From: Octopus vulgaris
Taxonomy: Eukaryota
Assembly: GCA_951406725.2 (NCBI GenBank)
Contig: OX597816.1
Location: forward strand, 77,996,001-78,060,000
DNA length: 64,000 bases
Direction: 5' to 3'
Every line of letters begins with the position of its first letter. The stretch's first letter is position 1. The notes under the pieces were generated by a model, which was not told where the DNA came from, ran no database searches, and saw nothing but the letters and a program-made list of their open reading frames with translations. The translations under genes and the position numbers were made by a program. Below are positions 17,924-41,151 of the stretch, in pieces.

Positions 17924-17958
17924 TATATAAAAAGAAATCGCTCATCGCCATTCAGTAG
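17924..17958 (+). promoter_or_regulatory. Core promoter (TATA box + initiator) of the neuropeptide precursor gene
   Basis: TATATAAAAAG at 17924-17934 and the Inr-like TTCAGT at 17951-17956 (A at 17954) put the TATA at about -30/-28. ATG|GTAAGT follows ~80 nt later. A CRE half-site TGACG lies at 17644-17648. Confidence 0.65.
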
Positions 17959-18030
17959 TCACATACCAAAGCTTCTTCCCCGGATTCTCTAGGACGTCTC
18001 AGATTTTTTTTCACAGAATAACTAAGAAGA

Positions 18031-18033
18031 ATG
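18031..18033 (+). CDS. Coding part of exon 1 (initiator ATG only) of the achatin/Ocp-type neuropeptide precursor; exon ~17954-18033
   Basis: AAGAAGAATG|GTAAGT: purine at -3 and a perfect phase-0 donor. It supplies the Met missing from the phase-0 signal-peptide exon at 35541. Confidence 0.6.
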
Positions 18034-19197
18034 GTAAGTAAACTAATGGCGACCTCTGAGTGTCTCTTTTACTTTTACTTTCGCTATCTTCTTTCATTAT
18101 CTATTTCTCTCTCTCTCTCTCTCTCTCTCTCTCTCTCTCTCCATCTCACTCCGTCTCTCTCTTACTCTTTCTCTCTCTCCCCTTCTCTCTCACACACACA
18201 CGCTATATGCATACATACATACATGCAGACAGACTGACTGACAGACAAGCAGACAGACATATACAAATACACACGCATAATATGAAAACATTTGCTTTGC
18301 TTCTTGTATATTCGAATGGATGTAAATATATTTATATGGGAGTGTTTATATGTACTTTTGGTATATAGTTTGGCACGTGTACAATATACAAGCACGCACA
18401 CACACAAACATATATACTTACACACATAAACACATGCATACACACATATGTATACATACGTATGCATACATATATATATATATATATATATATATATATA
18501 TATATATGACAGTGTAAGTGTGCTTTATTAGTTTGGTGCTTTACTATGAATATAATATATATATATATATATATATATATATATATATATATATATATAT
18601 ATATCAATTAAGTAACGAGATGGATTTCGTATTAAACTTTATTCTGTACAACGTTCGTTTCGACCCAAAATATACCACGACTGCGAATGACAACAGGTAG
18701 CCTAAACTCTGCCACTTAAGCACACTAATCGACTTATATCTATTAGTCCAAAATATTATTATTTTTATTATCATCATCATCATTATTATTATTATTATTA
18801 TTATTATTATTATTATTATTATTATTATTATTATTATTATTATATATATGAATATATATACACACACAAATGCTTACACAAATGCAACATCAACAAAAAA
18901 ATTAAGAAACATAACAAACACACACACACACGGATAACTACAGGTAGATTATGATATTCAACAACTGTGAATAACAGTTTAGTTACATCTAAAAGATTAG
19001 AAAATTAAAAACTATTTGATCCCAGTTCTTCAATATCAGTAAACAAACAGAATAGTAAAGGTATACAAAATTGTCGCATTTGATCCTAATTAGTTCCGAC
19101 AAACGATCAAAGTAGCCGTTATTCATCATTTAAATTAACTGTTTGATGAATAAAACAAAATGGCAAACATTTAGTTTTTATTATTGTTAATTCGCTG

Positions 19198-20565
19198 AAA
19201 AGGTGGCGAGCTGGAAGAAACGTTAGCACGCCGGGCGAAATGCTTAGCGGTATTTCGTCTGCCGTTACGTTCTGAGTTCAAATTCCGCCGAGGTCGGCTT
19301 TGCCTTTCATCCTTTCGGGGTCGATAAATTAAGTACCAGTTACGCACTGGGGTCGATGTAATCGACTTAATCCGTTTGTCCCTCCTTGTTTGTCCTCTCT
19401 GTGGGTAGTAAAGAAATAGGTATTTTGTTCGTCTTTAATCACCCCCCACTAAATTGACTCATCCCCTTCCCCTAAATTGCTGGCCTTGTGCAAAAATTTG
19501 AAATCATTATCAATCTGCTGAAAGGCGGCAAACTGGCAGAATGGTTAGCACGCCGGGCGAAATGCTTTGCAGTATTTTCGTCCGCCGCTGCGTTCTGGGT
19601 TCAAATTCCGCCGAGGTCGACTTTGCCTTTCATCCTTTCGGGGTCGATAAATTAAGTACCAGTTACGCACTGGGGTTGATGTAATCGACTTAATCCGTTT
19701 GTCTGTCCTTGTTTGCCCCCTCTGTGTTTAGCCCATTGTGGGTAGTAAAGAAATAGGTATTTTATCTGCCGTTACGTTCAAAGTTCAAATTCTGACAAGG
19801 TCGACTTTGCCTTTCATCCTTTTGGGGTCCATAAATTAAGTATCAGTGAAGCACTGATTTCGATGTAATTTACCTACCCCCTACACCAAATTTCAGGCCT
19901 TGTGACTAGAGTAGAAAGGATTATTAATCTACTGAAAGGCGGCGAGCTGGCAGAATTGTTAGCACGCCGGGCAAATGCTTAACGCCATTTTATCCGTCTT
20001 GACGTTCTGAATTCAAATTCCGCTGAGGTCGACTTTACTTTCCATCCTTTCCATCGACTAGTCCTCTCCAAAAAATTTCAGGCCTTATGCCTATAGCAGA
20101 AATGATTATTAATCTGCTGGCAAAGGCAGCAAGCTAGCAGAATCGTTAGCACGCAGGACAAAATGCTAGGCGGCATTTCATCCGTCTTTATGTCCTGAGT
20201 TCAAATTCCGCCGAAGTCGACTTTTACTTTTATCCTTTCGAGGGTTGATAAAATTAGTATTAGTTGAGCAATGGGGTCGTATAATCGACTTACTCCGATA
20301 TTGCTGGCCTTGTACCAAAATTTGAAATCATTATTATTATTAAGCCGGCAGAATTGTTAGCACACCGGAAGAAAATGCTTAGCGACATTTCGTCCATCTT
20401 TATGTTCTGAGTTCAAATTCCGCCGTGGCCGACTTTACTTTTCATCCTTCCAGTAATCGATAAAATAAGTACCAGTTGAGTGCTACCGGGGTCGATGTAA
20501 TCGTCTAACCTCCTCCCCACAAATTTCAGGCTTTGTCTTTATAGTAGAAATAATTAGTATTATTA
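19198..20565 (+). mobile_element. Head-to-tail array of 5-6 tRNA-derived SINE copies (same family as 14135-15720)
   Basis: The head GGCGGCGAGCTGGCAGAA..GTTAGCACGCCGGG recurs at ~19201, 19523, 19937, 20124 and 20345, each followed by the same central domain. Confidence 0.85.
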
Positions 20566-37997: not shown

Positions 37998-40683
37998 CTT
38001 TTGTTAAATTTCTGCTACTTTTAAATAAAGCATATTACTCTACCTCTGGTATTTGAGTACTCTTTTTTTCCACCTTGTTTCACATTTATGGGTTTACTCC
38101 GGTATATATATATATATATATATATATATATATAAGTATAGACATATATATATATACAAATATATACGTATATAGCATTATGTGCGTGTGTGTGTTTGTG
38201 CTTGTGTGTGTGTGTGTGTGTGTGTGTGTGTGTGTGTGTGTGTGTGTGTGTTTTATTTGTTTAGCACATGACTTGATCAGAGGCAATATGTTAAAACTGA
38301 AACAATTTACATTATAGAAGGGTTATATGAGCCATTTAAATAAACAAACTCCTTTTTATGGACATTTCGCTTATTTCTTAATAACATTATCTGTTATGCA
38401 GACACTTTTGACACTTCATCGTAGATTAAACTTTTAAGACCTAAACAAAAAGTGCATAAAACGGTTTTTGTGTCTTCTTTAAAATGACTTTTCCGACACA
38501 CACACACATACACACACAAACGCACACGCACACACACACACACACACACACACACACACACACACACACACACACACACACACACACACACACACACACA
38601 CACACACACACACACACACACACACACACACACACACATACGAGCTCGATTGCTTTCCATATACTTTTCGTCTACGAAATCCCACTGAAAGTATTGGTAA
38701 ACCTACGGCTGGGAAAAGTAGAAGACTGTACAGTAGTCCCAGCTACCGTACAGTGGGATCGAACTTGGAGCCACTTTGTTGCAAAGCGAACTTCTTAATC
38801 AGACGGCCAGCCATGCCGACACTTCATATGGTTTCGGATAGCATAACTGCACAGAATCACATGCATACGCATTCACATATACACACACAACATAGACACA
38901 CTCATATATATCAAAACATATACACATACGCGCATGCGCATATCCACAAGGGTTCTTTTGTACAGTTTCACTGGAAATATTCTCTTTCTTAGTCAACAGT
39001 GTATTAAGGCGAAGTGGCAGAATTGTTAGAGCATCCAACAGAATAGTTTGCTGTATTTGTTCCGTCTATCATCGCTCTAAGTTCAAATTTCGTTGAAGTC
39101 AACTCATCTTTTCATTCTTTTGGAGTTGATAAATAAAGTATCAGGCTAAGGTGGTGGATTGGTGGAATTGTAAAGGATTTGTGTGAGTTCCGGCTCAGTG
39201 TCTTTTGAGTTCAAATCCCGTCTTCACTAACGGAAAAATAAAACACATCAGTTAAGAATTGCAACTGACAGGTACTATCAGCAATTGAAAAAAAAAGGCA
39301 CTTGAAACATGGTTTCTAGATTCGTTCAGAAGATCAGCTGTGAATATGATGAAATGCTTGATCAAGAATACCCTCCATTTTGGGTTGAGATTTCCATATC
39401 AATTGTGTTACTGTTTTACCAACTTCTTAATGTATCTTATTTTAAACAGAGGGCCTTATAATTTGTATACAACACCTCAGTTAATCCCAAATAGGTATTT
39501 GCCGATGTCAACCCAGTAGTGAGTGCTTATGTTTTACAATGAACACCTAATTTTAATAAGTACTCATCTGTTTATAAAGCAGCTTCTTCTTCATAGTATG
39601 AGTCAACGAAGGTGCCTTTACGTAGTTGCTTTACCTGCTAGGAATAAGAGTCAAAATATTACACAAATTACACCCTACCGTCTTAGAAAATGAAGGGCGC
39701 TTTTGGATAACGTAATCCTGGACACACTATACATAAAATGACGGAGGGGTCACGACTAGAACCGTTATGGTCAAAGGCCTGTTTGGTCAGATTTAAGCAA
39801 GGATTAAGCAACAATATACAATTTCAGATATATTTCTCAGTAAACTATTAAGCTATATTAAACGGCATATTTACCTTGAGTATTTGTTCCGTGGTACTTA
39901 GCAGACACAGAGTTTCCTATAACATGATAACTACTTAAAACACATGGCAGGTATAAATGAATTTGCAGTCATGATAATGCTATATCTGTAGATACAAAGA
40001 GCGGGGATGATTAAGTTAGTGTCTGGCAAAAATTACGTTTCTTTACAGTCCAGCTAAGGATTAGTTTGCCTTTCCTCTTTCCTAATAATATACAACCTCC
40101 TCCACTCCAAACAAACAGTTCTCTCCATATGTTACTGTAGTAAAACCAATATTTCTGTCAACAAAATGTTTTTACAGTTGTTTAATTCTAGATCCTCTCT
40201 GATGAAAGAAGCTGATGGTGAAAGTCGTTCTAGTTGTGAACATTTCATCTCATTTAGAACCACATTTCCTTTTAAGACAGTCAGATATTGTTTGGAGGAG
40301 ATTTGGTTAGTATTTCCAGCTGGTCGGGTTATGACGTAAAAGCTCCCTAGTTGGTTCGTGCCAGAGTTTCGATAACTCTCAAGGTAACAACGGCCTACAT
40401 ATTTCAAAATATAAGGTATCCATGTTGGGCATTTTTGCTCTTATTACTGCTGCAAGTAACATTTATTCAAAATACTGCATAGTATCAGTGTTACAATATG
40501 ATGTTACGCTCATCAGGTAAAAGAAATCAATCTGCTTTACGTATAAATATCTTGTATGAGAAGTTGAGGAAATCCAATCTCCTTACTGTAGACCATCCAA
40601 CTAACACGTTATGGCCTTTGTTTTAGAAAATAGTACCGCAAATTTGAGCTCATTATTATTTTTTCTTTCTCTTTGCTTTTTAG

Positions 40684-40915
40684 ATGCAATGATAATGTCG
40701 GTAAACGAAGTGGCTGGTATAAACGTGGAAGTTGGGACAAACGTGGAAGTTGGAATAAGAAAAGTGATGATCAAACCAAACGCGGCAGCTGGAACAAACG
40801 TTCGGATGAAGAGGACAGCAAACGAGGCAGCTGGAACAAACGACAAGAAACGGAAGACTTCTCTGAAGCAATGCTTAAGAAAGTCCTTAATGAAAACTAT
40901 GGAGTCCACTTGTAA
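40684..40915 (+). CDS. Exon 3 of the achatin / octopus cardioactive peptide (Ocp-3/4, GSWD)-type precursor
   Basis: Polypyrimidine tract + TAG acceptor (40681-40683), phase 2. Encodes CNDNVG-KR-SGWY-KR-GSWD-KR-GSWN-KK-SDDQT-KR-GSWN-KR-SDEEDS-KR-GSWN-KR-QETEDFSEAMLKKVLNENYGVHL*. Repeated peptides between dibasic sites with acidic spacers are the standard precursor layout. Confidence 0.92.
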
Positions 40916-41145
40916 ACAAATTATACTAATAATACATATATATAGAAACATGTATATTATGATAAAATGTGAACTAAACTTTTCCTCTGGGATATTAACT
41001 GCATACAAATGGAAAGGATTATTACACGCCGGTTAGAACGAATGCCAAGACATTTCTTCTGTAAGATTCTTCGCAGCTAACAGTATGGAATTTAAAGGCT
41101 CTTCAAACCAACCTGCATTTTAAACATTTCATGCTTTTTTTTTTT

Positions 41146-41151
41146 AATAAA
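41146..41151 (+). terminator. Candidate polyadenylation signal of the neuropeptide gene
   Basis: AATAAA ~230 nt after the stop codon, followed by a T/GT-rich downstream element (CGTTTCTTTCTTCGTTATTTTT). Confidence 0.55.

What the first reader, a model, noticed from the sequence alone, without database searches (positions are those of the whole stretch)
17924..41151. Complete 3-exon achatin/Ocp-type neuropeptide gene that the ORF track does not assemble
Seen: joining 18031-18033, 35541-35728 and 40684-40915 at GT-AG sites with matching phases (0, 2) gives a 140-aa precursor: MVKITSICFCFLLGLGVLFDSWAEA / GCARPC...SCNDNVG-KR-SGWY-KR-GSWD-KR-GSWN-KK-...-KR-GSWN-KR-...-KR-GSWN-KR-.... Established: Gly-Ser-Trp-Asp and Gly-D-Ser-Trp-Asp (Ocp-3 and Ocp-4) are cardioactive peptides isolated from octopus brain, related to achatin (G-dF-AD). 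Inference: this locus is their precursor gene, and its peptides are candidates for L-to-D isomerisation at residue 2. Exon 1 is the least certain part; TTTTTTTCACAG at 18005-18016 could be an acceptor for a further upstream exon.
Basis: partly seen in the sequence, partly recalled or inferred. Interest (0 to 1): 0.8.

Follow-up and report, generated by a model that had tools for sequence, protein, structure and literature searches.

The report
Octopus GSWN neuropeptide precursor gene
This is a real, already annotated octopus gene for a brain peptide precursor of the mollusc-wide GSWN family, not the achatin gene, and its most conserved part is an unstudied cysteine-rich piece that may be a hormone of its own.

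Summary
The three exons are real and join in frame. The 140-aa product is identical to existing database models (XP_029634124.1 / CAI9719516.1), and the exon 2-3 joint stands in contigs of 3 of 4 runs laid. The gene is not new. The same protein is in a 2019 mollusc neuropeptide survey (achatin cluster), and the squid orthologue was published in 2023 as 'achatin-related'. The achatin label is probably wrong. Octopus has a separate true achatin gene (GFGD repeats, no cysteine domain), and this precursor aligns with oyster Cragi-GSWN: signal peptide, 8-cysteine domain, then GSWN. It carries one GSWD, so it is the likely source of the octopus heart peptides Ocp-3/4; I could not read that paper. 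L-to-D conversion at Ser2 is untested, and the Aplysia isomerase did not convert a Ser2 analogue. The open lead is the 8-Cys domain. It is the conserved core in 19 of 23 proteins, has a basic site at the turn of a predicted helical hairpin, and often ends in an amidation signal. It may be an orphan, possibly two-chain, disulfide-linked hormone.

The parts
17922..17929 (+). TATA box candidate
   Evidence: TATA followed by TCAGT at the right distance occurs at 2 places on the + strand of the 64 kb window (9325 and 17922)
17952..17956 (+). initiator-like TCAGT; inferred transcription start at 17954
   Evidence: the 79-letter 5' overhang of one contig would end here if colinear (table 8); contigs cannot prove a start, and another contig would reach 17933
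17954..18033 (+). exon 1: 5' UTR (no upstream ATG in 17900-18030, in-frame TAA 18019-18021) plus the start codon 18031-18033
   Evidence: database models begin with Met joined to exon 2; joint not seen directly in reads
18034..35540 (+). intron 1, GT-AG, phase 0, 17.5 kb, microsatellite-rich
   Evidence: contigs leave the genomic sequence at 35540
35541..35728 (+). exon 2: rest of the signal peptide (to about residue 25) and 7 of the 8 domain cysteines
   Evidence: hydrophobic core at residues 9-15; SignalP not run
35613..35728 (+). 8-Cys domain, exon 2 part (C27, C31, C38, C46, C47, C53, C58); predicted helical hairpin; R-C-V-R site ending at R40 (35655-35657) at the turn
35729..40683 (+). 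intron 2, GT-AG, phase 2
   Evidence: skipped in contigs of 3 of 4 runs
40684..40915 (+). exon 3 coding part: eighth Cys (C65), Gly-Lys-Arg amidation signal, tetrapeptides, acidic C-terminal peptide, stop codon
40709..40720 (+). SGWY, flanked by KR
40727..40738 (+). GSWD, the single copy matching Ocp-3/4
   Evidence: the Ocp identity is recalled and from the finding
40745..40837 (+). three GSWN copies (40745-40756, 40784-40795, 40826-40837) with acidic spacers
40916..41151 (+). 3' UTR up to the AATAAA signal at 41146-41151
   Evidence: the 3' overhangs of two contigs would end at 41145 and 41187 if colinear

Best explanation
This is the octopus member of the molluscan GSWN neuropeptide-precursor family. 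A TATA/Inr promoter (inferred) drives a three-exon mRNA (exon 2-3 joint shown, exon 1 inferred). The precursor enters the secretory pathway (signal peptide inferred from hydropathy). Prohormone convertase cleavage at KR/KK with carboxypeptidase trimming (established pathway, inferred here) would release unamidated SGWY, GSWD and three GSWN, an acidic C-terminal peptide, and a roughly 44-residue peptide with four disulfides ending in Val-amide. GSWD is most likely the cardio-excitatory Ocp-3 (and, if epimerised, Ocp-4) isolated from octopus brain. In processing logic it works like achatin: repeated four-residue unamidated ligands, presumably for a GPCR. It is a different gene, present beside true achatin across molluscs. 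Cephalopods have multiplied the tetrapeptide, while most bivalves and snails keep one copy.
For: Identity to database models. Splice joint in 3 of 4 runs. The squid brain transcript has the same layout. A profile search gave 21 proteins at E<=10 among 3419 candidates, including oyster, scallop, mussel, limpets, abalone, Aplysia and Lymnaea. Oyster hits P0008/P0009 end in the exact peptide detected by MS for Cragi-GSWN. The 8-Cys pattern is in 19 of 23 proteins held, and in 0 of 100000 shuffles of each of three homologues. GF/Y-x-D achatin peptides are in 0 of 23. Both gene types co-occur in O. bimaculoides, Idiosepius and Gymnomenia and in oyster, Lottia, Aplysia, Lymnaea and Solemya.
Against: No peptide, receptor, tissue or activity data were obtained for this gene. 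The exon 1 joint was not seen letter for letter, and one of four runs gave no cover. The runs are only guessed to be RNA. The Ocp peptides came from O. minor, whose orthologue I did not see, and their sequences are recalled. Six family hits had weak E-values (0.5-9.3). A published survey clusters this protein with achatins, although that cluster is known to hold a spurious member.
Confidence: 0.85

Rival explanations
1. The main product is the 8-Cys domain. It is cut at the basic site after Cys3 into two helical chains held by disulfides (probably C1-C7, C2-C6, C3-C4 between chains, C5-C8 within), often amidated, and acts as an orphan hormone. The tetrapeptides are co-products.
For: A dibasic site follows Cys3 in 14 of 14 non-octopod 8-Cys proteins. 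The 5 of 5 octopod proteins that lack it have a basic residue at -4 before the kept Arg, against 4 of 14 elsewhere. The loop is 7-16 residues and variable. The site lies at the turn of the predicted hairpin. Gly precedes the first KR in 13 of 19. Cysteines are lost in pairs: C1+C7 in P0012 and C5+C8 in P0005. The octopus paralogue keeps the domain and has no GSW peptide. The oyster paper already draws two Cys-rich peptides here; a 3+5 split forces at least one inter-chain bond if all cysteines are paired.
Against: No MS evidence: only the C-terminal oyster peptide was detected. The sequences are related, so the counts are not independent (two are models of one oyster gene). Each paired loss is one sequence, and C4 versus C5 in P0005 rests on spacing. 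A basic site next to a disulfide may be a binding surface and stay uncut. P0005 has no basic site. The models are of modest confidence (pLDDT 64-80 over the domain), and the disulfide pairs were not read from coordinates.
Confidence: 0.3
2. It is a distant paralogue of achatin (an 'achatin 2') that gained or kept a Cys domain, and its peptides act on an achatin-family receptor.
For: Same format: KR-flanked unamidated G-x-x-D/N tetrapeptides. Bivalve and scaphopod achatins carry GFWD/GFWN. Clustered with achatins in PMC6425005 and called achatin-related in PMC10172372.
Against: None of the classic GF-x-D/N achatin precursors read shows the 8-Cys domain (read by eye). Both genes coexist in aplacophorans, bivalves, gastropods and cephalopods. 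Similarity of short repeats misleads clustering. The achatin receptor responds only to the D form, whereas my recollection is that the all-L GSWD is the active octopus form.
Confidence: 0.3
3. The peptides are enzymatically epimerised at Ser2 as a regulated modification.
For: A D-Ser form (Ocp-4) is reported from octopus brain (the finding and my recall; the paper was seen only as a citation). Position 2 is the usual site in Aplysia D-amino-acid peptides.
Against: The Aplysia isomerase converted Phe, Tyr, Trp and Leu but not Ser at position 2 of GFFD analogues. By recall the D-Ser form is far less active, so it may be an off-switch, a side reaction or an extraction artefact. Nothing in the DNA can show chirality.
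Confidence: 0.4
4. The real first exon differs: an extra upstream non-coding exon splices to 18017, or another ATG exon is used.
For: A pyrimidine tract plus CAG lies at 18005-18016. One contig's 5' overhang of 100 letters does not fit a 17954 start. The 5' letters were not displayed.
Against: TATA and Inr lie directly upstream, and another contig's overhang fits 17954 exactly. 18031 is the only perfect ATG|GTAAGT among 32 sites. The protein would be unchanged by an extra non-coding exon (in-frame stop at 18019).
Confidence: 0.12

Closest known systems
LOC115209753 / XP_029634124.1 (O. sinensis), CAI9719516.1 (O. vulgaris), LOC106869081 (O. bimaculoides)
   Same: Identical 140-aa protein (one change in O. 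bimaculoides), so the same exon joins
   Different: Named 'uncharacterized' or 'hypothetical'; the automatic 'SMB domain' label has no Pfam support
Todarodes pacificus 'achatin-related peptide' (PMC10172372)
   Same: Orthologue from a brain transcriptome: same signal peptide, 8 Cys, GSWN/GSWD repeats
   Different: More tetrapeptide copies and no SGWY; the passages seen do not discuss the Cys domain or link it to the GSWN family
Cragi-GSWN (Crassostrea gigas LOC105336174; PMC8398477)
   Same: Signal peptide, aligned 8 Cys, amidation Gly, KR-GSWN-KR; domain alone 36% identical over 39 aa
   Different: One GSWN against four GSW peptides plus SGWY; a dibasic site after Cys3 against R-C-V-R; unrelated C-terminal peptide
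Achatin precursors (Achatina achatin-I, Aplysia ALNP, O. bimaculoides Ocbimv22028576)
   Same: KR-flanked, unamidated Gly-initial tetrapeptide repeats
   Different: Aromatic residue 2 (GF-x-D), no Cys domain, separate gene in the same species, receptor selective for the D form
Ocp-3 / Ocp-4 cardioactive peptides of Octopus minor (Iwakoshi et al. 2000, PMID 10876044)
   Same: GSWD occurs once between KR sites
   Different: Paper not held, seen only as a citation; sequences and potencies recalled; different species; GSWN, not GSWD, is the majority peptide here

Membership tests
Molluscan GSWN precursor family (PMC8398477) | Strictly conserved cysteine positions in an N-terminal domain | tested here: met
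   C27, C31, C38, C46, C47, C53, C58, C65 align with the oyster, scallop, mussel and gastropod proteins
Molluscan GSWN precursor family (PMC8398477) | GSWN tetrapeptide between basic sites, after the Cys domain | tested here: met
   three GSWN and one GSWD
Molluscan GSWN precursor family (PMC8398477) | Homology to Cragi-GSWN itself | tested here: met
   P0008/P0009 found at E 4.8e-6 and 1.1e-4; they end in the MS peptide listed for Cragi-GSWN
Molluscan GSWN precursor family (PMC8398477) | Potentially amidated Cys-rich peptide | tested here: met
   Gly-Lys-Arg at residues 70-72; a sequence signal only, amidation itself not shown
Molluscan GSWN precursor family (PMC8398477) | Dibasic site after Cys3 that splits the domain | tested here: inconclusive
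   octopus has R-C-V-R, a possible monobasic site, not K-R
Molluscan GSWN precursor family (PMC8398477) | Secreted, expressed in ganglia | not testable with these tools
   hydrophobic N-terminus; tissue of the runs unknown; the squid orthologue is from brain
Achatin precursors (strict sense) | GF/Y-x-D/N tetrapeptide repeats with an aromatic residue 2 | tested here: not met
   0 GF/Y-x-D copies; residue 2 is Ser
Achatin precursors (strict sense) | Simple signal-plus-repeats layout without a Cys domain | tested here: not met
   8-Cys domain present; absent by eye from the classic achatins
Achatin precursors (strict sense) | Being the octopus orthologue of achatin | tested here: not met
   O. 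bimaculoides has a separate precursor with more than ten GFGD copies, Ocbimv22028576
Achatin precursors (strict sense) | D-residue at position 2 needed to activate the achatin receptor | not testable with these tools
   receptor selectivity from PMC10089201; Ser2 analogue not converted by the Aplysia isomerase
Ocp-3/Ocp-4 precursor | Encodes KR-flanked GSWD | tested here: met
   40727-40738; peptide identity recalled
Ocp-3/Ocp-4 precursor | Only octopus gene encoding excisable GSWD | not testable with these tools
   no genome held for this window
Known Cys-rich domains (SMB, WAP, others) | Profile or fold match | tested here: inconclusive
   no Pfam family above cut-off; fold searches not decisive

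The most novel reading that the evidence does not exclude
The conserved core of the GSWN family is an unrecognised pan-molluscan hormone. It would be a four-disulfide helical hairpin cut at its turn into two linked chains (insulin-like processing on an unrelated fold), often amidated and co-released with GSWN/GSWD. In octopods it was duplicated into a paralogue without GSW peptides. The family has been mislabelled achatin in cephalopods, and its GSWD (Ocp-3/4) would define a second tetrapeptide system with its own receptor and opposite chirality logic.
Probability: 0.25. Interest if true: 0.62.

Novelty: already known. Interest (0 to 1): 0.27.

Why it matters
As a gene find it matters little: the model and orthologues are on record. 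The useful result is a correction that makes tests possible. Cephalopod 'achatin-related' GSWN/GSWD precursors are the oyster GSWN family and are distinct from achatin. That gives Ocp-3/4 a candidate gene, warns that 'achatin' expression results in cephalopods may refer to either gene, and predicts a separate receptor. If the Cys domain is a processed two-chain hormone, molluscs have an old signalling system that short-peptide MS surveys have missed.

Tried and rejected
No whole genome was held, so the paralogue's position and other GSWD genes could not be checked; the paralogue is not in the window. No RNA holder listed: no run is on record as RNA. Fourteen RNA-guess rows held 0.74-0.83 of the words, against 0.78 expected for exon 3 alone; only four runs were laid. 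Run X8 gave no cover of exon 2. Single-sequence searches reached only octopods and Nucella. Pfam: nothing above cut-off. ESM Atlas: all feature scores 0.80 or lower, no family named. The full-length model was poor (mean pLDDT 54.5, alignment of 6). Fold searches gave only generic hairpins (best Z 4.5 and 4.7, none at 5 or more of 48161 chains; Foldseek no match at E<=0.001); this shows no new fold. A tree of 15 domains had 0 of 12 well-supported branches and was not used. The Ocp paper and Bai 2013 were not held. Searches and passages gave no Ocp sequence or potency. Four accession terms occur in no main text searched. The venom preprint mentions achatin only in an abbreviation list (its supplements are closed), so no venom role was pursued. 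The Neomenia 'achatin' entry was dropped as evidence because it is identical to a bivalve entry. Earlier scan findings: none.
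Full report
Observation. After a hydrophobic N-terminus (Kyte-Doolittle means of 2.4-2.9 at residues 9-15; SignalP not run) come eight cysteines (27, 31, 38, 46, 47, 53, 58, 65), then Gly-Lys-Arg. Then follow SGWY, GSWD and three GSWN between dibasic sites, and an acidic tail. In a six-frame scan of the window the GSW[DN] motif occurs once outside exon 3, on the minus strand and without basic flanks.

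The model is on record. The spliced product has 0 differences from XP_029634124.1 / CAI9719516.1 (O. sinensis, O. vulgaris) and 1 from XP_014770093.1 (O. bimaculoides). That a prokaryote-style ORF list does not assemble it is expected for a gene with 17.5 kb and 5 kb introns.

Splicing. I laid 4 of the 24 listed runs on exon 2 only; all four are guessed, not recorded, to be RNA. In 3 of 4, one contig covers 35540-35728 without differences and continues with 30 letters equal to 40684-40713. The fourth gave no cover. At the 5' side the contigs leave the genomic sequence at 35540, a G shared by the acceptor and the ATG, but their upstream letters were not shown, so exon 1 rests on indirect evidence. 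Of 32 ATG|GT sites upstream, 18031 is the only one with a perfect donor and the only one with TATA (17922) plus TCAGT (17952). One contig's 79-letter overhang would start at 17954. Another's 100 letters would reach 17933, which does not fit. An in-frame stop at 18019-18021 means an extra non-coding exon would not change the protein.

What it is. A profile of the six first hits found 21 proteins at E<=10 among 3419 candidates. With the two cluster members this gives 23 proteins. Nineteen of 23 have the 8-Cys pattern (18 under a stricter spacing). Two have six of the cysteines, and two show only the repeats. The pattern arose in 0 of 100000 shuffles of each of three homologues. The oyster hits end in the 16-residue peptide that PMC8398477 lists by MS for Cragi-GSWN (supplement rows), and that paper defines the family by conserved cysteines and GSWN (passages). 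Thirteen of the 14 non-octopod 8-Cys proteins carry a single GSW peptide. Octopus, squid, Nucella and aplacophorans carry several. The proteins are related, so these counts are not independent events.

What it is not. The supplement of PMC6425005 (file 3, parts 110-112 read; the file shows no headers) lists this protein from O. vulgaris and O. bimaculoides inside a block that runs from slug achatin to oyster achatin. PMC8557429 (passages) identifies the next entry of that block as annotated achatin in that survey and calls it spurious. The same block holds a separate O. bimaculoides precursor with more than ten GFGD copies and no Cys domain. Both kinds also co-occur in Idiosepius, Gymnomenia, oyster, Lottia, Aplysia, Lymnaea and Solemya. 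They have therefore probably been separate since early molluscs (inference). PMC10172372 (passages and one supplement row) published the squid orthologue as 'achatin-related' from a brain transcriptome. A remote common origin with achatin is not excluded, since some bivalve achatins carry GFWD/GFWN.

How it probably works. Shown: gene structure, exon 2-3 splicing, family membership. Inferred from the standard prohormone pathway: secretion, cleavage at KR/KK, and release of unamidated tetrapeptides and of an amidated Cys-rich peptide. The single GSWD makes it the likely precursor of Ocp-3/4. Those peptides and their heart activity are from the finding and my recall; the paper was seen only in reference lists and was not held. 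On chirality, the achatin receptor takes only the D form (PMC10089201, passages), but the Aplysia isomerase did not convert a Ser2 analogue of GFFD (PMC11277431, section 6). My recollection is that the D-Ser octopus peptide is the weak form. The analogy to achatin is therefore poor, and any epimerisation would need another enzyme or be incidental.

The open lead. The cysteine domain, not the tetrapeptide array, is the conserved part. Two models give a helical hairpin (helices 29-40 and 46-58; 38-residue model with mean pLDDT 75.5). A dibasic site follows Cys3 in 14 of 14 non-octopod 8-Cys proteins. The 5 octopod proteins lack it but all have a basic residue at -4 of the kept Arg, against 4 of 14 elsewhere. 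The loop behind it varies from 7 to 16 residues, and 13 of 19 have Gly before the next KR. One protein lacks C1 and C7, another lacks C5 and C8, which suggests those pairs. Cleavage would leave a 3-Cys and a 5-Cys chain linked by disulfides. The oyster paper already draws two Cys-rich peptides but, in the passages seen, does not link them; its figures are images I could not see. Against this reading: there is no MS support, each paired loss is one sequence, the Nucella protein has no basic site, and a site beside a disulfide may stay uncut. A 95-aa octopus paralogue keeps the domain without GSW peptides.

Novelty. The gene and protein are already known. I did not find the equation 'cephalopod achatin-related = GSWN family = Ocp-3/4 precursor', or the two-chain reading, in ten searches of the held library. 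Key subscription papers (Iwakoshi 2000, Zatylny-Gaudin 2016) were not seen and may state it. Other papers opened as passages without bearing on the verdict: PMC4721866, PMC12085718, PMC9206679, PMC6117391, PMC6523705 and the venom preprint.

Verdict. Observation confirmed, interpretation partly supported, already known, interest 0.27. The most novel reading is an orphan two-chain disulfide-linked hormone, at probability 0.25 and interest 0.62 if true.

Noticed in passing
P0004 / P0006 (CAI9719515.1; not in the window): 95-aa octopus paralogue that keeps the signal peptide, 8 Cys and amidation Gly but has no GSW peptide.
   Followed up: partly
P0003 (Argonauta hians, GAB1600580.1): The orthologue keeps the Cys domain, but most tetrapeptide copies have decayed cleavage sites; only one clean GSWN remains, and the amidation Gly is lost.
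   Followed up: partly
P0005 (Nucella lapillus) and P0012 (unnamed): Six-cysteine members that have lost different cysteine pairs; Nucella has at least seven GSWN copies.
   Followed up: yes
window 45023-49141 (+), 52865-55887 (-), 55928-59662 (+): Several broken non-LTR retrotransposon copies with reverse-transcriptase-like frames (up to 699 aa) downstream of the gene; the label is from reading the translations, not from a family scan.
   Followed up: no
window 10461-11063 (-): 200-aa frame that looks like a GIY-YIG endonuclease of a Penelope-type element; recalled resemblance, not tested.
   Followed up: no
window 40844-40912 (+): The C-terminal peptide begins with Gln (possible pyroglutamate) and is predicted helical at residues 121-136; it is conserved in octopods and squid but not in bivalves or snails.
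   Followed up: no
PMC6425005 supplement file 3, part 111: The Neomenia entry 28810 is letter for letter the same as the bivalve Ennucula entry 40566, probably cross-contamination.
   Followed up: no
window 9325: A second TATA plus TCAGT pair on the + strand, inside a microsatellite region, probably chance.
   Followed up: no
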